Virus record (IMG/VR): IMGVR_UViG_3300024351_000643
Location: 1 to 63,721 of that record
From: a virus
Lineage: Duplodnaviria > Caudoviricetes
Strand: one strand, 5' to 3'
DNA length: 63,721 nt
Part shown: positions 7,683 through 13,142 of the stretch, piece after piece
Layout of the letters: every line of letters starts with the position of its first letter
Position numbering within the stretch: position 1 is the stretch's first letter
Position numbers and translations under genes: made by a program
Notes under the pieces: model-generated
What the model was told of the DNA's origin: nothing
The model's input: the letters and a program-made list of their open reading frames with translations, nothing else
Database searches by the model: none

Positions 7683-8381
7683 CTATTGGTTTAAGGTTGG
7701 GTCTGAGGCTGTTGTTTTGGGCATTACTTTTCCCTCTTTCCACTCAGCCCTCTGCTGATATTGAATATCTTTTACAGAATCTTTGATTTTGTTTAAGTCT
7801 TCAGAATACTCAGAATCAATAAAATCATAAGATCCAAGCATCGTGTATCTCTCACCCTTTAAAACTTCTGTGACGGCATGAACATTCCCTATGCCGACAT
7901 CAAATACTACTACCGTTCCAGTCTTAGGCTTAATGGCTATATTGTGATCCCTAAAAGTTAACTTTCCGCCCTCATAATCATCGTTTAAATAAACTATAGA
8001 GACCAATTTGTTTTCTATCCATGCATTTGGTGTTCCATCTAATTCCGCATTATCTGCATGGTCTGCAGCAAAAGCACCTGGATCCCATTTGTGAGGGCTC
8101 AAACTAATTTGACGAAGCTCTCTTTCAAAAACTTTTTCTGCAAGATTCCATAATTTTAATTGAAAATTACGCAATTTCATTCCAGCTTCTGCTGATATTT
8201 GTTTTTGACCAGAGATTATGTACATTCCGTAAAAACAAGATGGAATCCAGTCTTCAAGGCTGTTCCAGTAATCCAATATATATTTGCACTCTGCTTCTGT
8301 AAAAACATTATGATATTCTACGATATCATGCTTATGCACAATCTCTACTAGATTACTGTTATGAACAACCTTTTCTTTCAT
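7683..8381 (-). CDS. 2OG-Fe(II) oxygenase, prolyl-4-hydroxylase-like
   Basis: HAD...YLNDDYEGG...HAV...RYT. Confidence 0.9.
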   Translation of the reverse strand: MKEKVVHNSNLVEIVHKHDIVEYHNVFTEAECKYILDYWNSLEDWIPSCFYGMYIISGQKQISAEAGMKLRNFQLKLWNLAEKVFERELRQISLSPHKWDPGAFAADHADNAELDGTPNAWIENKLVSIVYLNDDYEGGKLTFRDHNIAIKPKTGTVVVFDVGIGNVHAVTEVLKGERYTMLGSYDFIDSEYSEDLNKIKDSVKDIQYQQRAEWKEGKVMPKTTASDPTLNQ

Positions 8382-8396
8382 AAATACATTATACCA

Positions 8397-8909
8397 TTAC
8401 GCTGATAGAATCTTAGACAAGGCATTTATTGTTGCTGCAATTCTACCTATATCTCTTAATTGTTCTACAGAGTAACCCTCTTCTTTTAATGTTTCATAAT
8501 GTGCTTTAACGCAAAAATGACACTTTCCAATAATTGATGAAGCCAGGGAATAAGCCTCAAACTTTGCTTTTGTTGTTCCTCCGTGTGAGGCTATTGCATT
8601 CATTCTAAGTTGTGCAGGCAGTCCTTTAAGGCCTGCATCATCAGCCATCTCAATAAATGGATACCAAATATTATTTTGGGCCATGATAGAACCAGCTGTC
8701 AGGGCTGCATTTTTTTCAACTTCGTCTGATGCATTTGCTACAATAAATGCCAGAAGTTTAGAATTACCTGTGGCAAATGCTGCTGCAATTGAAAGATACG
8801 TAGCATGCTCTGGATCAATTGTTGATCTATTGATTACTGCATCAAGGTTTAACTTGATATCCTTAGCATATTCTGGAAGAGAATCCTTAAGCTGGTCTAC
8901 CCATGACAT
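8397..8909 (-). CDS. ahpD: Alkylhydroperoxidase AhpD (start refined to MSWVDQ)
   Basis: LPEYAKDIKLNL, MAQNNIWY, SIIGKCHFCVKAH; TAATG coupling to ahpC. Confidence 0.9.
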   Translation of the reverse strand: MSWVDQLKDSLPEYAKDIKLNLDAVINRSTIDPEHATYLSIAAAFATGNSKLLAFIVANASDEVEKNAALTAGSIMAQNNIWYPFIEMADDAGLKGLPAQLRMNAIASHGGTTKAKFEAYSLASSIIGKCHFCVKAHYETLKEEGYSVEQLRDIGRIAATINALSKILSA

Positions 8910-9484
8910 TATAGCGTTTCCCCGCCCAAAGGTCTGTTGCAGGCACAAAGCTCTCCTGTTTGAAGAGCATCTAGAACTCGCAATGCTTCTTCTGGATTAC
9001 GACCTACGTCAAGGTTGTTTACAGTTACATGTTGAATAATATTATCTGGGTCAACAATAAATGTAGCACGTAAAGCAACTCCTTGTGGAGTAATAATTCC
9101 TAACTGATCAGCAAGTCCAGATAGCGACCTATCATTTTCTTCATCGTAAGACCAGCCACGGATTTGATCAGCAAACATCCATGAGTTTGTTTTCTTCAAA
9201 TCTTCGTGTGCATTTCTCCATGCAATCTTACAAAATTCATTATCTGTTGATCCAGTTAGCAGTACTGCGTCTCTGTCTTCAAAATCTTTTGCAAGCTTAT
9301 CATATGCAACAATTTCAGTTGGGCATACAAATGTAAAATCTTTTGGATAGTAAACAATTACTTTCCACTTTCCAGGAAAGGAATTTTCTGTTAGCGTTTC
9401 AAAAACATCATCAGACGCATCTAGTCTCCCTGGCTTTACTCCGACGATTGCAAAACCGTCAATTTTATCTCCAATTGTTTTCAT
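8909..9484 (-). CDS. ahpC: Peroxiredoxin AhpC (start refined to MKTIGD)
   Basis: YPKDFTFVCPTE, GRNPEEALRVLDALQ, LCACN; AGGAG SD. Confidence 0.95.
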   Translation of the reverse strand: MKTIGDKIDGFAIVGVKPGRLDASDDVFETLTENSFPGKWKVIVYYPKDFTFVCPTEIVAYDKLAKDFEDRDAVLLTGSTDNEFCKIAWRNAHEDLKKTNSWMFADQIRGWSYDEENDRSLSGLADQLGIITPQGVALRATFIVDPDNIIQHVTVNNLDVGRNPEEALRVLDALQTGELCACNRPLGGETL

Positions 9485-9500
9485 ATTTCTCCTTTGTATC

Positions 9501-9529
9501 AGTTTACTATTTTTAAATAGCATTGTCAA
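9501..9529 (-). promoter_or_regulatory. Sigma70-type promoter for ahpC-ahpD
   Basis: TTGACA-17 nt-TAAACT. Confidence 0.6.
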
Positions 9530-9537
9530 TAGCTTAG

Positions 9538-9611
9538 CGATCCATAACGGACTTGAACCGTCGACCTCTTCCGTGACAGGGAAGCGCTCTAACCAACTGA
9601 GCTAATGGACC
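9538..9611 (-). tRNA. tRNA-Asp(GTC)
   Basis: Cloverleaf; anticodon arm CTTCC-CTGTCAC-GGAAG; GTTCAAG T-loop. Confidence 0.95.
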
Positions 9612-9612
9612 A

Positions 9613-9687
9613 TGGAGCCCCATAACAGATTTGAACTGTTGACCTGCCGCTTACAAGGCGGCTGCTCTACCACTGAGCTAACAGGGC
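9613..9687 (-). tRNA. tRNA-Thr(TGT) with encoded CCA
   Basis: Anticodon arm GCCGC-CTTGTAA-GCGGC. Confidence 0.95.
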
Positions 9688-9689
9688 AA

Positions 9690-9856
9690 ATGCCATTCGT
9701 GCTATCACAGTTCTATTCGCTGTCCTTAAGCCAATGGCTGTTATACCTAGTAGGTTGGCAGAGCAATCTCCTTCGGGCTGAACCCCTTCGTATGATGCGC
9801 CTACAGAGTCGGTTTCGGTATAACCTATCTCCACATAGATTGTTCAGATCTATATT
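9690..9856 (-). ncRNA. Candidate ~165-nt structured ncRNA with a kissing loop
   Basis: Nested stems (GTTATACC/GGTATAAC, GTAGG/CCTAC, GCCATT/AATGGC) and complementary loops CTGAAC/GTTCAG. Confidence 0.6.
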
Positions 9857-9861
9857 TTGAG

Positions 9862-9934
9862 CTGGACCACCAGGGCTCGAACCTGGGACATTAGAGTTAA
9901 CAGCTCTACGCTCTGCCAACTGAGCTATGGTCCA
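9862..9934 (-). tRNA. tRNA-Asn(GTT)
   Basis: Anticodon arm TAGAG-CTGTTAA-CTCTA. Confidence 0.95.
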
Positions 9935-10025
9935 ATACTGGTTAGCGGCGCAGCCAGTCTGCGTGTTGTTCCTACATAGCCGTTTGATCGTGTCCTAGGA
10001 CATACAGTGACGGTTCTACCGCATG
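9935..10025 (-). ncRNA. Candidate structured tRNA-trailer RNA
   Basis: GC-rich spacer with stems CCGT/ACGG, TGTCC/GGACA, CGCAG/CTGCG, ACTGG/CCAGT. Confidence 0.4.
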
Positions 10026-10098
10026 CGCCCCTGAAAGGAATCGAACCTCTGACGCAGGCCTTAGAAGAGCCTCGCTCTATCCGCTGAGCTACAAGGGC
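10026..10098 (-). tRNA. tRNA-Arg(TCT)
   Basis: Anticodon arm AGGCT-CTTCTAA-GGCCT. Confidence 0.95.
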
Positions 10099-10111
10099 AA
10101 ATTATTATATC

Positions 10112-10396
10112 TTATTCGTCTAATTCTATCAATCCTAATTCTCTTGCAACTCTTTTTCCCTCATCACTTAATTCCATATGTGCTTCTAAGTTTTCATCGT
10201 ATTCTACATTTAGTAAACCTTTTTCAAATAAATCTATAAGCGTTGCATCCACAAAACTTGTATGAGCTTCCCATAACTCTGGGGCAAGCTCTTGTGCAAT
10301 TGGATCAATTGTGAAAATAAACTCTCCGTTATCGTCTATACCAGACATTTTGATTACACCCATTTCAACATACATATTTAATAACTCTTCGTCCAT
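10112..10396 (-). CDS. Acidic hypothetical protein
   Basis: ORF with GGAGG SD. Confidence 0.75.
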   Translation of the reverse strand: MDEELLNMYVEMGVIKMSGIDDNGEFIFTIDPIAQELAPELWEAHTSFVDATLIDLFEKGLLNVEYDENLEAHMELSDEGKRVARELGLIELDE

Positions 10397-10408
10397 TTTC
10401 CCCTCCTG

Positions 10409-10482
10409 TGCGCCAAATAGGACTTGAACCTATGATTACCGAATTATGAGTTCGGGGCTTTAACCAACTAAGCTATTGGCGC
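10409..10482 (-). tRNA. tRNA with CAT anticodon (elongator Met or lysidine-modified Ile2)
   Basis: Anticodon arm CCGAA-CTCATAA-TTCGG; paired G1-C72, so not an initiator. Confidence 0.9.
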
Positions 10483-10492
10483 CTAGTTAGTA

Positions 10493-10522
10493 ATTATAAT
10501 ATATGACATTAAATATTGTCAA
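10493..10522 (-). promoter_or_regulatory. Consensus sigma70 promoter for the tRNA cluster
   Basis: TTGACA-18 nt-TATAAT. Confidence 0.75.
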
Positions 10523-10742
10523 TAGTTTTTTCAACAGCCTGCTGAACGTATTCAGAAAAATGTTTTCTTATACTTCCCATCGGCCTCTTGCCGTAAGACT
10601 TCCATATTCTTTTATATTCAACTATATTATAATAAGTTGTTGGACATACAGTCTCTCCGTTATACTCTTTCATAACTGTTGGGAGTGGAACATGTTTTGT
10701 GCAACATTTACATAACTTTGCTTGTTCTTGATATTCACTCAT
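10509..10742 (-). CDS. Hypothetical Cys-containing protein
   Basis: ORF overlapping the terL stop. Confidence 0.7.
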   Translation of the reverse strand: MSEYQEQAKLCKCCTKHVPLPTVMKEYNGETVCPTTYYNIVEYKRIWKSYGKRPMGSIRKHFSEYVQQAVEKTIDNI

Positions 10743-12553
10743 ATTATTTGCATCCTATCCATAGCTTCTTTTAAATGTTCTGGCATTTTGGGGGCACGAA
10801 TCATATTATAGTGATGAACCTCTGCGTCTGCCTTTTTGCCAAAATCATCATCATAAGACATAGACTCATATGTATGTATGTCTATTTCTTGATTTACATT
10901 TGGCCTTGTCATACTAATTGCATTAAATATTGACCCGCAAACTGCGTCAGCCAAGTCTTTTGATCCTTTGCGTGGGTGATCAACTTTATCTTTCATTATT
11001 TTTAATTGTAACAATTCATCTATAAGTAAAGGTATATATGGACCTTTTAATCTTTCTTCAAGCACAACCATTGCCATATCGTCATAATGTTTTTTTGCTA
11101 CAGACAATATCTCAGTATTAATTCCATATTGTTTTAATTGCTGCATCATGTCATGAGAATTCCATCTATCAAAAGTACATAGTCTTATTTTAAAGCCAGC
11201 AGTTCTCAAAGCCAAGATGTAGTCTTTTACTTCTGTAAAGTCTACAGACTTGTCTGGTGTTGGCGTCCAGTATCTTACGGCATCAACTTCAACTATTGGG
11301 GCAGGCTGAGAGTAGCTGTCTGTTACCTTTACGTTAACCCACTTTTGAACATGTGACATAGAGACAGCACAGTGGTCATGTTTTTGCGCCAAGTCAACGT
11401 GTATAAAATATTCTTTGTCTGGATCTGGCGCAAACCAATTCTCCAGTCTTCCAAAAGAATCTACTGCAAGAGCAGTATTGCTAAACGCTTTTTCTATTTT
11501 TTCACGAGATTTAAAAAATGCATCTATCATCTCTGGAGGCATACATGCAAATCTTCCCAGAGCGTCTGGCATATTTTTATAAAACTCTACTTTATAATCT
11601 TCAATCTTTTTAGTTGGATTAACTTCCCAGGATGGTCTTTTAATTGCGTATACTTTTGGTATAGCATATGAAACAATGTGGTCCTCTTCCCACTCAACAA
11701 CTACCTCGTTTCCTGGTGTACCCTCTGGCAGATCCTCGTCCATTTTTAATGTAGCAGATCTAATAATTGTTTCTTTATCTGCTATAACTGAGTCATAAAA
11801 TTTTTGAATAGGATCATTTTTAAAACGAGGGAAGGAAAGCAATATAACCTTGCCATAGTCTGGAAAACGGGAAATTACTGATGCACGATACATATCATAT
11901 ATAGCGTCAGCTGTTTTTGCTTGATCGTGTCCTGTTGTGTTCTCTATTGCAAATCCTGAAATCTCATCAAGGATTACAGCAATAACGTTATATCCTTCCC
12001 AAGCTTCTCTTTGAGAGTGACCTGAGTGTACTGTTATGCTCTTATCAAATTTAATTTCTGATGCTTTTGCTTCATATTTACCTGCAAACCAAGGGCATCT
12101 GTCAACACGAGTTTTAAATCCTTTAAAGAAAACGTTGTTTGCTTGTTGTGCGTTAATAGCAATATTTAGAATATCAATTGTATCGCCTGGTGGCTTACCA
12201 TAATATGTTGCTGGGTCTTTTAAGCATAACAGAAGATAAACCATATACGATACTGAAATGGTAGCCGTATAGTCTTTTCCAGAACCCTTTCCGAGTTGAG
12301 CAATTACTTCATTGCATGTTTGTTTAAACATGCGCTTTCCTTCTTCTTCTCCAAACAGTTTAACCAAGGTTGATTCTTTATATATCTGAGAAGACTTTTC
12401 AATAAGAGTATATTGATAATCAGATAAAGGGGGAAGCCCTAAATAGTCTGGGCTTGTTACAAATGTACGTAGATCTACTGGACGTTCATCAAATTCTTCA
12501 CCGTCTAGTATATCTATTATGTCATTAAAATTAAATTCCAAATTCGGCTCCAT
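10739..12553 (-). CDS. terL: Terminase large subunit
   Basis: GKGSGKD Walker A, VILDE Walker B, HVDLA nuclease Asp, DHP..GSKDLADA. Confidence 0.92.
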   Translation of the reverse strand: MEPNLEFNFNDIIDILDGEEFDERPVDLRTFVTSPDYLGLPPLSDYQYTLIEKSSQIYKESTLVKLFGEEEGKRMFKQTCNEVIAQLGKGSGKDYTATISVSYMVYLLLCLKDPATYYGKPPGDTIDILNIAINAQQANNVFFKGFKTRVDRCPWFAGKYEAKASEIKFDKSITVHSGHSQREAWEGYNVIAVILDEISGFAIENTTGHDQAKTADAIYDMYRASVISRFPDYGKVILLSFPRFKNDPIQKFYDSVIADKETIIRSATLKMDEDLPEGTPGNEVVVEWEEDHIVSYAIPKVYAIKRPSWEVNPTKKIEDYKVEFYKNMPDALGRFACMPPEMIDAFFKSREKIEKAFSNTALAVDSFGRLENWFAPDPDKEYFIHVDLAQKHDHCAVSMSHVQKWVNVKVTDSYSQPAPIVEVDAVRYWTPTPDKSVDFTEVKDYILALRTAGFKIRLCTFDRWNSHDMMQQLKQYGINTEILSVAKKHYDDMAMVVLEERLKGPYIPLLIDELLQLKIMKDKVDHPRKGSKDLADAVCGSIFNAISMTRPNVNQEIDIHTYESMSYDDDFGKKADAEVHHYNMIRAPKMPEHLKEAMDRMQII

Positions 12554-13142
12554 GCAGGTTAGTTTTTACAAAAGATTCTGGAACCTTTACCATTTTATAT
12601 ATATGATTAGAATGTGTATATCTAACTTCACTAAGCAGCTCATTTACTCCATGCAAACAATCTTGTCCCGCCCCATGTATTACAAGATCACCTTTTACTG
12701 GATGATACTCTATACCCTTTTCTGGATAAAAAAGTGATCCTCCTTCAAAATTATTAAAATAAAGTATCATTCCTGCTACATTTAATTGCTCAAGCTTAAA
12801 AGGCTCACCTTCTTTATATAAATATGCAGCTTCTTTTACATCAAGAAAATCATGCTCGTCTGTATGCACTCCCCAAGTTGAGCCCTTAAGCATTCTTATT
12901 GGGTTTACATTTGTTCCTACGTAATATCCCTCTTCAAGCAAAGATTGAACTCTTTCCCTGATTTTAGCTATTATGTCTATAGAGATAGTTCTTTTGTGCC
13001 CAGATCTTTCATCTCCAATCCAAGCATCTTCGCTAAGATTAGAAACAATATCTAAAATACTATTGCACTCTTCTTCTGTAACAAAATTATGATAAACATA
13101 AATATTTTCATGAATTTTTTCTGCGTTATCTGTTTTTAACAT
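12531..13142 (-). CDS. 2OG-Fe(II) oxygenase
   Basis: HTD...YFNNFEGG...HGV...RYT. Confidence 0.85.
   Translation of the reverse strand: MLKTDNAEKIHENIYVYHNFVTEEECNSILDIVSNLSEDAWIGDERSGHKRTISIDIIAKIRERVQSLLEEGYYVGTNVNPIRMLKGSTWGVHTDEHDFLDVKEAAYLYKEGEPFKLEQLNVAGMILYFNNFEGGSLFYPEKGIEYHPVKGDLVIHGAGQDCLHGVNELLSEVRYTHSNHIYKMVKVPESFVKTNLHGAEFGI

What the first reader, a model, noticed from the sequence alone, without database searches (positions are those of the whole stretch)
9690..9856. Unannotated ~165-nt structured RNA with a kissing loop inside the tRNA operon
Seen on the minus strand: hairpin ATAGAT-CTGAACA-ATCTAT; an 8-bp stem (9817-9824 with 9740-9747) enclosing GTAGG/CCTAC and a junction with hairpins GGG-TTCAG-CCC and GAG-ATTG-CTC; and a 3' domain closed by GCCATT/AATGGC. 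Loop CTGAAC (9842-9847) is exactly complementary to GTTCAG (9778-9783). It fills the Asn-Thr spacer, so tRNA processing would release it. Known: phage tRNA clusters host structured ncRNAs such as manA and GOLLD. I cannot assign this one to a family.
Basis: partly seen in the sequence, partly recalled or inferred. Interest (0 to 1): 0.75.

Follow-up and report, generated by a model that had tools for sequence, protein, structure and literature searches.

The report
New structured RNA in phage tRNA arrays
The gap between two tRNA genes of this uncultured freshwater phage holds a roughly 170-base folded RNA with a loop-loop contact, one member of a recurrent and so far unnamed RNA family of unknown function that sits in phage tRNA gene arrays as if it were a tRNA gene.

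Summary

The single-sequence fold is not better than shuffles (z -1.17). Comparative evidence is strong. A covariance model found 99 copies (73 distinct) in viral and metagenome contigs. Of all cells, 98.9% form pairs. 28 of 45 pairs show compensatory changes, against 7-14 in slid controls and 0 of 500 shuffles. The one variable kissing-loop pair reads C-G 64, U-A 4, U-G 3, and is never mismatched.

In 68 of 78 contexts tRNAs lie within 2 nt on both sides, with 28 different tRNA pairs. One copy stands alone.

There is no Rfam 15 match even at E<=10. T4 rnaC/rnaD do not match the model, and manA has a different consensus structure.

Best reading: a new family of stable, trans-acting structured RNA, co-transcribed with tRNAs and excised by tRNA processing. 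It has an invariant three-way-junction core. Its function is unknown.

The parts
9688..9860 (-). Whole element, 173 nt, filling the tRNA-Asn/tRNA-Thr gap
   Evidence: covariance model R1 hit 166.9 bits, model positions 1-168 of 168
9856..9860 (-). 5' single-stranded tail UCAAA, directly after the tRNA-Asn discriminator; no CCA is encoded
   Evidence: most copies begin UC(A/G)
9833..9855 (-). P1 hairpin: 8 bp (9848-9855 with 9833-9840) and 7-nt loop CUGAACA (9841-9847)
   Evidence: 7 of 8 pairs have changes on both sides; loop nearly invariant
9842..9847 (-). Kissing-loop strand 1, CUGAAC
   Evidence: pairs with 9778-9783; variable pair C-G 64, U-A 4, U-G 3, 0 mismatches
9825..9832 (-). J1/2 linker GGAGAUAG; AGAU nearly invariant; repeats the GGAGAU word of P5
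9817..9824 (-). P2 5' strand
   Evidence: pairs with 9740-9747; 4 of 8 pairs have changes on both sides
9805..9816 (-). J2/3 asymmetric internal loop, starts with conserved GA
9800..9804 (-). P3 5' strand GUAGG
   Evidence: pairs with 9750-9754; 5 of 5 pairs have changes on both sides
9796..9798 (-). P3b 5' strand GCA, closing the three-way junction
   Evidence: pairs with UGC 9758-9760; G-C 64, G-U 6, A-U 2 and C-G 70, U-G 2
9787..9795 (-). Junction strand UCAUACGAA, invariant
   Evidence: identical in every aligned copy, including those found by a pattern that does not contain it
9775..9786 (-). P4 hairpin: 3 bp with 6-nt loop GUUCAG (9778-9783), the second kissing strand
   Evidence: 2 of 3 pairs compensatory (U-A 24, G-C 22, C-G 21 at the inner pair); variant contigs in RNA libraries carry 9777 G>C together with 9784 C>G
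9771..9774 (-). J4/5 GAAG (GAWG in the family); could extend P4 by non-canonical pairs opposite CGAA
   Evidence: the non-canonical extension is my inference
9761..9770 (-). P5 hairpin GAG-AUUG-CUC, invariant
   Evidence: no covariation possible; one G-U variant keeps the pair
9758..9760 (-). P3b 3' strand UGC
9750..9754 (-). P3 3' strand CCUAC
9740..9747 (-). P2 3' strand
9692..9738 (-). P6 3' domain: 9 bp with two conserved bulges, enclosing a variable insert (9703-9729) that sets the two size classes (145-159 and 160-174 nt)
   Evidence: 8 of 9 pairs have changes on both sides; size classes
9688..9691 (-). 3' tail AUUU ending at the first base of tRNA-Thr
9861..9934 (-). tRNA-Asn(GTT), upstream neighbour
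9613..9687 (-). tRNA-Thr(TGT), downstream neighbour
10104..10132 (-). Promoter-like site TTGATA-17-TATAAT (11 of 12) just upstream of tRNA-Arg; probable start of the transcript that carries the element
   Evidence: consensus match only; 5 sites found against 4.3 expected in the region

Best explanation
Window 9688-9860 (minus strand) encodes a member of a previously unnamed family of 145-174 nt structured non-coding RNAs. These RNAs occupy a gene slot in the tRNA arrays of uncultured freshwater siphoviruses whose nearest cultured relatives are actinophages.

Inferred expression: the RNA is transcribed with the tRNAs from a promoter upstream of tRNA-Arg. It is cut out without signals of its own. 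3'-end processing of tRNA-Asn (no CCA is encoded, so an RNase Z-type cut after the discriminator is expected) makes its 5' end. RNase P cleavage at the 5' end of tRNA-Thr makes its 3' end. This is the same logic as mitochondrial tRNA punctuation and as T4 species 1 and 2 RNAs.

Shown structure: a 5' hairpin P1; a long arm P2-P3-P3b ending in a three-way junction with hairpins P4 and P5; and a separate 3' hairpin domain P6 with a variable insert. The P1 loop (CUGAAY) pairs with the P4 loop (RUUCAG).

Inferred role: this contact folds P1 back onto the junction and fixes the invariant junction strands (UCAUACGAA, GAWG, the P5 hairpin) as a binding surface for a protein, RNA or small molecule. The released RNA then acts in trans as an accessory factor during infection. 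Given the company it keeps, its most plausible field is translation, tRNA metabolism or defence against host attack on tRNAs. The actual function is not known.
For: Shown:
- Exact fit between two tRNAs on the same strand.
- 99 model hits, 73 distinct, at 80 to 182 bits.
- 68 of 78 de-duplicated contexts have tRNAs within 2 nt on both sides, with 28 different flanking pairs, so the unit moves as a cassette.
- Structure: 98.9% of cells paired and 28 of 45 pairs compensatory, against 7-14 in slid controls; 0 of 500 shuffles as high. The result is similar on a MAFFT alignment. The top 14 mutual-information pairs are all model pairs.
- 156 of 3176 cells are G-U (my sum). These would be A-C on the other strand, so the transcribed strand is that of the tRNAs.
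- Kissing loop: the variable pair is never mismatched. U-A arose in at least 3 lineages. L201 is 98.2% identical to L192 yet differs from it at both partners.
- Core invariance was cross-checked with two non-overlapping search patterns.
- The element spans phages whose terminases are only 53-84% identical to the window's.
- One copy per genome in 4 of 4 complete genomes.
- One copy (L170) lies in a 12-kb contig without any tRNA, so the element is more than a tRNA spacer.
- Contigs of four metatranscriptome libraries cover the element with 0 differences.
- A contig in one of them joins 9687 to 9861 with 3 other letters, a variant lacking exactly the cassette.
- Promoter-like sites of 12 of 12 and 11 of 12 lie before tRNA-Met and tRNA-Arg, and no minus-strand terminator-like site lies inside the array.

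From established knowledge (recalled): RNase P and RNase Z define tRNA ends.
Against: - No direct evidence of transcription level, RNA ends or stability. The runs were contigs, and an RNA library can hold DNA.
- The single-sequence fold is not unusually stable (z -1.17).
- Five of the six kissing pairs and all of P5 never vary, so they are supported by conservation only.
- The element is dispensable. Only 3 of 160 related loci carry it (L010, L159 and a partial weak match in L102), and the four closest terminase relatives (92-95%) do not. An empty-site variant coexists in one sample.
- No partner protein was identified. Ro60/TROVE is absent from the window record and from 4 complete carrier genomes.
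- The field of action (translation, tRNA, defence) is guilt by association only.
Confidence: 0.7

Rival explanations
1. RNA-only multimer. The CUGAAY and RUUCAG loops pair between molecules, not within one, chaining copies into dimers or larger assemblies, as found for the much larger phage tRNA-island RNAs ROOL and GOLLD.
For: The two loops are complementary and covary, and covariation cannot tell intra- from intermolecular pairing. In ROOL and GOLLD, kissing loops first read as tertiary contacts proved to be intermolecular bridges, and both RNAs lie near tRNA islands in phages (passages read in bioRxiv 10.1101/2024.12.08.627333, and PMC5737381).
Against: The RNA is 3 to 5 times smaller than ROOL or GOLLD and has a single complementary loop pair. 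An 8-nt J1/2 linker leaves room for the intramolecular contact. Nothing here measures oligomeric state.
Confidence: 0.12
2. Cis-acting processing element or self-cleaving ribozyme. The fold serves maturation of the neighbouring tRNAs, as the HDV-like theta ribozymes found after tRNAs in gut phages are said to (recalled, not read here).
For: It sits flush against tRNA ends in 68 of 78 contexts. An invariant junction core is typical of catalytic RNAs.
Against: Of 418 same-strand tRNA gaps in these arrays, 220 are under 20 nt and need no such element. The flanking tRNAs vary (28 pairs). One copy has no tRNA nearby. No ribozyme family of Rfam 15 matches at E<=10. The first 5 nt are unpaired and the covariation-supported fold is not a nested double pseudoknot.
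Confidence: 0.1
3. Ligand-sensing aptamer (riboswitch-like) that controls expression or processing of what lies downstream.
For: It has a pseudoknotted fold with an invariant junction. manA RNA, filed by its discoverers as a riboswitch candidate (PMC2864571, passages read), sits in the same arrays.
Against: There is no consistent downstream gene: ten different tRNA genes (by anticodon) follow it. No expression platform is present. P6 is followed by 3-4 nt of varying sequence, not a U-tract, and no terminator-like site was found on that strand.
Confidence: 0.06
4. No function of its own: a decayed tRNA or other relic, a small protein-coding ORF, or a selfish cassette.
For: ORFs of 55 and 68 codons overlap the region on the minus strand. 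The element is dispensable and patchy.
Against: Both ORFs run into tRNA genes. Copy lengths range from 149 to 173 nt without regard to frame. Compensatory changes at 28 pairs and an invariant core persist across phages with terminases 53-84% identical to the window's, which indicates selection on RNA structure. ARAGORN and the Rfam tRNA model find no tRNA in it.
Confidence: 0.02

Closest known systems
Bacteriophage T4 species 1 and species 2 RNAs (rnaC, rnaD)
   Same: Both are small stable RNAs of unknown function placed head to tail with tRNA genes in a phage tRNA cluster. In the T4 record, rnaD (119 nt) ends 1 nt from tRNA-Arg and rnaC (139 nt) follows after 6 nt. Both are presumably released by the tRNA-processing enzymes.
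   Different: No detectable homology. Model R1 run without filters gives 1.5 bits on rnaC and nothing significant in 5 kb of T4. By eye, T4 rnaC ends in a T-arm-like hairpin, which this RNA lacks.
manA RNA (Rfam RF01745)
   Same: Similar size (about 185 nt), pseudoknotted, found in aquatic phages. In relatives of this window it occupies tRNA-array slots: L176 reads tRNA, manA, tRNA-Asp, this element, tRNA-Leu.
   Different: Different sequence and architecture. The window has no manA hit. Rfam types manA as cis-regulatory, and its discoverers saw it mostly in 5' UTRs (PMC2864571, passages read).
GOLLD and ROOL RNAs
   Same: Orphan structured RNAs of phages and prophages, often near tRNA islands and possibly co-transcribed with them (PMC5737381, passages read). 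Kissing loops are central to their architecture.
   Different: They are many hundreds of nucleotides long (many GOLLD members exceed 800 nt) and form 8- to 14-mer cages. There is no Rfam match here. This RNA has one loop-loop pair.
Bacterial Y RNA-like RNAs (YrlA, RF02553)
   Same: Structured RNAs found with tRNA-like features, also in phages (recalled).
   Different: The only YrlA match is 23 bits against a cut-off of 69, and it lies over tRNA-Thr/Asp, not the element. The 5' and 3' ends do not pair with each other. No Ro60/TROVE gene is present in the window record or in 4 complete carrier genomes.

Membership tests
Any Rfam 15 family | Covariance-model score at or above the curated gathering cut-off | tested here: not met
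   Window at gathering cut-offs: only 5 tRNAs. 9300-10800 at E<=10 with permissive filters: no match overlapping 9688-9860.
manA RNA (RF01745) | Match to the manA model (cut-off 55.2 bits) | tested here: not met
   No hit in the window. True manA hits (64-74.7 bits) lie in other spacers of related arrays.
T4 rnaC / rnaD | Sequence and structure homology | tested here: not met
   R1 without filters on T4 69000-74000: rnaC region 1.5 bits, E 8.8; nothing reported (E<=10) within rnaD (2054-2172); best hit elsewhere 10.8 bits.
T4 rnaC / rnaD | Placement flush with tRNA genes in a phage tRNA cluster, same strand | tested here: met
tRNA / tRNA-like / tmRNA | Cloverleaf or tmRNA detected by ARAGORN or by the Rfam tRNA clan | tested here: not met
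   No gene called within 9688-9860.
YrlA / Y RNA | Model match; terminal stem formed by the 5' and 3' ends; Ro60 (TROVE) partner gene | tested here: not met
   23 bits against 69, and not on the element. Ends unpaired in the covariation-supported fold. TROVE found in 0 of 5 records while the control genomes gave hits.
GOLLD / ROOL | Model match; length of several hundred nt | tested here: not met
   No hit; the element is 173 nt.
Known self-cleaving ribozymes (hammerhead, HDV-like, twister, pistol, hatchet and others) | Model match or the family's core fold | tested here: not met
   No Rfam hit at E<=10. The fold is not a nested double pseudoknot. Catalysis itself is not testable with these tools.
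Structured ncRNA (general) | Compensatory base changes exceeding controls | tested here: met
Candidate structured RNAs predicted from IMG/VR (Fremin et al. 2023, PMC10690425) | Listed among the 8495 candidates | not testable with these tools
Only passages of the main text were read.

The most novel reading that the evidence does not exclude
This is a new class of functional RNA whose invariant junction is an active or recognition site: a ribozyme, an aptamer, an RNA-only assembly, or a decoy for host nucleases that attack tRNAs. The tRNA arrays of this freshwater phage lineage would then be a general plug-in expression and processing platform for unrelated structured RNA cassettes. At least five such families were seen here: this one, manA and three unnamed ones. 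They are shuffled among arrays like tRNA genes.
Probability: 0.25. Interest if true: 0.8.

Novelty: new member of a known kind. Interest (0 to 1): 0.6.

Why it matters
Phage tRNA clusters have been known since T4 to carry extra stable RNAs, and their roles remain unsolved. GOLLD, ROOL and manA share the same association with tRNAs.

This element adds a compact, well-defined family with about 100 copies, a covariation-supported fold including a loop-loop contact, and an absolutely conserved junction. At about 150 nt it is small enough for structure determination and biochemistry.

Its cassette behaviour points to a general principle: the host's tRNA-processing enzymes serve as a free excision system for phage non-coding RNAs. 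The evidence is 28 different tRNA neighbour pairs, an empty-site variant in one sample, and several other structured families in the same arrays. If its target proves to be the translation apparatus or a tRNA-directed host defence, that would help explain why phages carry tRNA arrays at all.

Tried and rejected
- Single-sequence thermodynamics: z -1.17, not informative.
- blastn of the element against 50,697 cultured-phage records: only four 24-nt chance matches, E 7.
- nhmmer and blastn in 160 loci fetched through the neighbouring terminase and peroxiredoxin genes: 2 hits only. The model adds one partial weak match, L102 (23.4 bits).
- Genome collection scan with a 17-base pattern: 27 stretches. 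Only 1 (L242, a 10.7-kb contig of a MAG labelled Methylococcus) is confirmed by the model; the other 26 are taken as chance.
- L213 matched the second pattern but not the model.
- T4 rnaC/rnaD homology: none.
- Streptomyces phage Gilson whole genome: no match.
- Y RNA idea: no TROVE gene.
- Extra tertiary pairs: the mutual-information scan gave nothing beyond the model.
- Neighbour genes of the three copies without an upstream tRNA (L170, L207, L185): listing their ORFs showed no obvious common gene; no family search was run.
- Depth figures from the laid runs are per-contig and were not used to rank expression. Stretches without cover in those runs are not evidence.
- The 141-nt spacer at the equivalent place in the closest relative L002 is unrelated.
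- Earlier findings of this scan were not open.
- One literature query was rejected for a too-short term.
- Four literature searches and passages of six papers gave no description of this motif.

Full report
**Setting**

The window is a 63.7-kb viral contig, estimated 59% complete. Almost all its genes are on the minus strand. Between a large-terminase gene (10739-12553) and an AhpC-type peroxiredoxin gene (8909-9484) lie five minus-strand tRNA genes:
- Met 10408-10482
- Arg 10025-10098
- Asn 9861-9934
- Thr 9613-9687
- Asp 9537-9611

The finding is the 173-nt gap between Asn and Thr, 9688-9860.

The nearest cultured relatives by terminase are Streptomyces phages of the Stanwilliamsviridae, at 60-63% identity. 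They have the same layout, with the terminase followed by a tRNA region. Portal, protease, capsid and tail proteins fit a siphovirus. A freshwater actinobacterial host is a guess from this and from the habitat labels of the runs that hold the sequence. It is not shown.

**The observation**

The minimum-free-energy fold recovers most of them, but it is not more stable than shuffled sequence (z -1.17). The sequence alone therefore proves nothing.

**Homologues**

- blastn against cultured phages found nothing.
- Among 160 loci fetched through the two neighbouring protein genes, nhmmer found two copies. Each fills a gap between different tRNAs: L159 between Gly and Leu, L010 between Arg and Met.
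- Their alignment gave a conserved core, which I used as a pattern. It returned 48 viral loci.
- A second pattern that shares no position with the first returned 52 viral loci, 6 of them new.
- A third pattern returned 44 metagenome loci.
- The genome collection gave 27 pattern matches. Only one is real by the model: L242, a short MAG contig.
- Covariance model R1, built from 38 sequences with my structure, confirms 99 copies, 73 of them distinct, at 80-182 bits.
- Each pattern fixes part of the core, so the invariance of that part could be an artefact of the search. However, copies found by one pattern are invariant in the part used only by the other, apart from a few single changes.

**Structure**

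On the 73 distinct sequences:
- 98.9% of 3176 cells are standard pairs.
- 28 of 45 pairs have changes on both sides.
- With partners slid by 1-3 columns, the figures are 31.5-42.0% paired and 7-14 such pairs.
- None of 500 column shuffles reaches the observed values.

The MAFFT alignment, which was not fitted to the structure, gives 96.7% paired and 27 of 45 pairs. A mutual-information scan blind to the structure puts 14 model pairs in its top 14 places.

G-U pairs make up 156 cells (my sum). They would be mismatches on the other strand, so the RNA is read in the direction of the tRNAs.

The helices are:
- P1: 8 bp with a 7-nt loop.
- P2: 8 bp.
- P3: 5 bp.
- P3b: GCA with UGC.
- P4: 3 bp with a 6-nt loop.
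- P5: GAG with CUC, invariant and therefore untested.
- P6: a 3' hairpin of 9 bp with two conserved bulges and a variable insert, which makes two size classes.

P3b, P4 and P5 form a three-way junction. Its strands UCAUACGAA and GAWG never vary, apart from W, which is A or U, and two copies (L210, L212) that read C at its first position.

**The kissing loop**

Five of the six pairs never vary. The sixth reads C-G in 64 sequences, U-A in 4 and U-G in 3, and is never mismatched. U-A occurs in at least three lineages. L201 is 98.2% identical to L192, and the two partners account for most of the difference. This supports the contact. It cannot say whether the contact is within one molecule or between molecules.

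**Context**

After removing duplicates (element plus 300 nt each side), 78 copies have at least 80 nt of sequence on both sides.
- A tRNA lies within 2 nt upstream in 74 copies, downstream in 70, and on both sides in 68.
- There are 28 different flanking pairs.
- The exceptions include five related copies with 57 nt before the next tRNA.
- One copy (L170) sits in a 12-kb contig with no tRNA at all.

Further context:
- Complete carrier genomes hold one copy each, 4 of 4.
- The element is patchy. Only 3 of 160 related loci have it, one of them a partial weak match, and the four closest terminase relatives (92-95% identical) lack it.
- Carriers have terminases 53-84% identical to the window's.

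**Expression**

Sixteen runs recorded as RNA hold part of the stretch. I laid four riverine metatranscriptome runs from four studies.
- Contigs with no differences cover the element, for example 9533-9891 in X3.
- These are contigs, and RNA libraries can contain DNA, so this is weak support.
- One contig in X1 joins 9687 to 9861 with three other letters. This is a variant that lacks exactly the cassette.
- Variant contigs in X1 and X7 carry 9777 G>C together with 9784 C>G, a compensatory change in P4.

Promoter-like sites of 12 of 12 and 11 of 12 lie just before tRNA-Met and tRNA-Arg. No minus-strand terminator-like site lies within the array. These are consensus matches only.

**What it is not**

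- There is no Rfam 15 match, even at E<=10.
- T4 rnaC and rnaD are annotated flush with tRNA-Arg and are the nearest analogue in placement. The model does not match them.
- manA RNA occurs in the same arrays of relatives but has a different fold.
- There is no Ro60 gene that would suggest a Y RNA.
- The overlapping ORFs run into tRNA genes, and copy lengths ignore reading frame.

**Literature**

Four full-text searches found no description of the motif. I read passages of six papers. A 2023 survey predicted 8495 candidate structured RNAs from IMG/VR (PMC10690425). Its list is in supplements that I could not open, so prior cataloguing cannot be excluded.

**Mechanism**

Shown:
- a discrete, mobile, strand-specific, structurally constrained RNA gene placed between tRNAs.

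Inferred:
- co-transcription with the tRNAs;
- excision by the 3' processing of the upstream tRNA and by RNase P at the downstream tRNA;
- a compact fold in which the loop-loop contact presents the invariant junction;
- action in trans.

The function is unknown. I rank a trans-acting accessory RNA first (0.7). The rivals are an RNA-only multimer, a cis processing element or ribozyme, and an aptamer.

**Verdict**

This is a real and, as far as these tools and searches show, unnamed RNA family. It is a new member of the known kind "orphan structured RNAs of phage tRNA clusters".

Noticed in passing
L176:10702-10886; L175:90-271; L211:1453-1634: manA RNA (RF01745, 64-74.7 bits) lies flush between tRNA genes in arrays of related phages. 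In L176 the order is tRNA, manA, tRNA-Asp, this element, tRNA-Leu. Rfam types manA as cis-regulatory; here it looks like a tRNA-punctuated cassette.
   Followed up: partly
L159:2533-2696, L163:602-761, L167:5063-5200 and 6 more distinct copies: A second unnamed spacer family of 138-164 nt sits between varying tRNAs (12 copies). The RNAalifold consensus has 33 pairs, 9 with compensatory changes. No Rfam hit at gathering cut-offs.
   Followed up: partly
L159:2337-2460, L002:5259-5387, L194:3628-3758 and 5 more: A third unnamed spacer family of 124-131 nt. Its consensus fold has 36 pairs, 13 with compensatory changes. No Rfam hit.
   Followed up: partly
L082:1303-1482, L169:659-838, L203:8933-9109: A fourth spacer family of 177-180 nt (3 copies) sits between different tRNA pairs. 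Not analysed further.
   Followed up: no
all viral loci fetched (L002-L215 and the window): Same-strand gaps between tRNAs are bimodal: 220 of 418 are under 20 nt and about 90 are 120-200 nt. The set is enriched for loci chosen because they hold the element, so the second mode is overstated.
   Followed up: partly
window 10112-10396 (minus): A 94-codon ORF fills the tRNA-Met/tRNA-Arg gap. The 300-360 nt spacers at this place form a family of 24 loci; the three copies I read begin with a Shine-Dalgarno-like AGGAGG. This is a small protein gene inside the tRNA array, with no Pfam or PHROG match.
   Followed up: partly
L195:3508-3783, L196:6114-6396, L204:1424-1706: Another 276-287 nt array cassette encodes a small protein with paired cysteines (possible zinc ribbon).
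   Followed up: no
window 9935-10024 (minus): A 90-nt spacer lies between tRNA-Arg and tRNA-Asn. Its fold is no better than shuffles (z 0.48). It has weak homologues in L164 and L166. Contigs in two RNA libraries join 9934 to 10023 and so lack it, which makes it also a presence/absence cassette.
   Followed up: partly
window 10493-10522 and 10104-10132 (minus): A perfect sigma-70 consensus (TTGACA-18-TATAAT) lies 10 nt before tRNA-Met, and an 11 of 12 match lies before tRNA-Arg. A third site (10 of 12, 9501-9529) sits between tRNA-Asp and the peroxiredoxin gene.
   Followed up: no
window 7683-9484 and 12531-13142 (minus): Auxiliary-type genes flank the array: an AhpC/TSA peroxiredoxin, a CMD (AhpD-like) domain protein, and two 2OG-Fe(II) oxygenase-like proteins.
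   Followed up: no
L175:1998-2083: A tRNA in a 22-tRNA array scores just over the tRNA-Sec cut-off (47.8 against 47 bits). It is probably a long-arm tRNA; not examined.
   Followed up: no
L244 (Streptomyces phage Gilson 68830-70446): The cultured relative has a 538-aa gene annotated 'RNA-binding protein' within its tRNA region. I did not check whether it is a Ro60 homologue.
   Followed up: no
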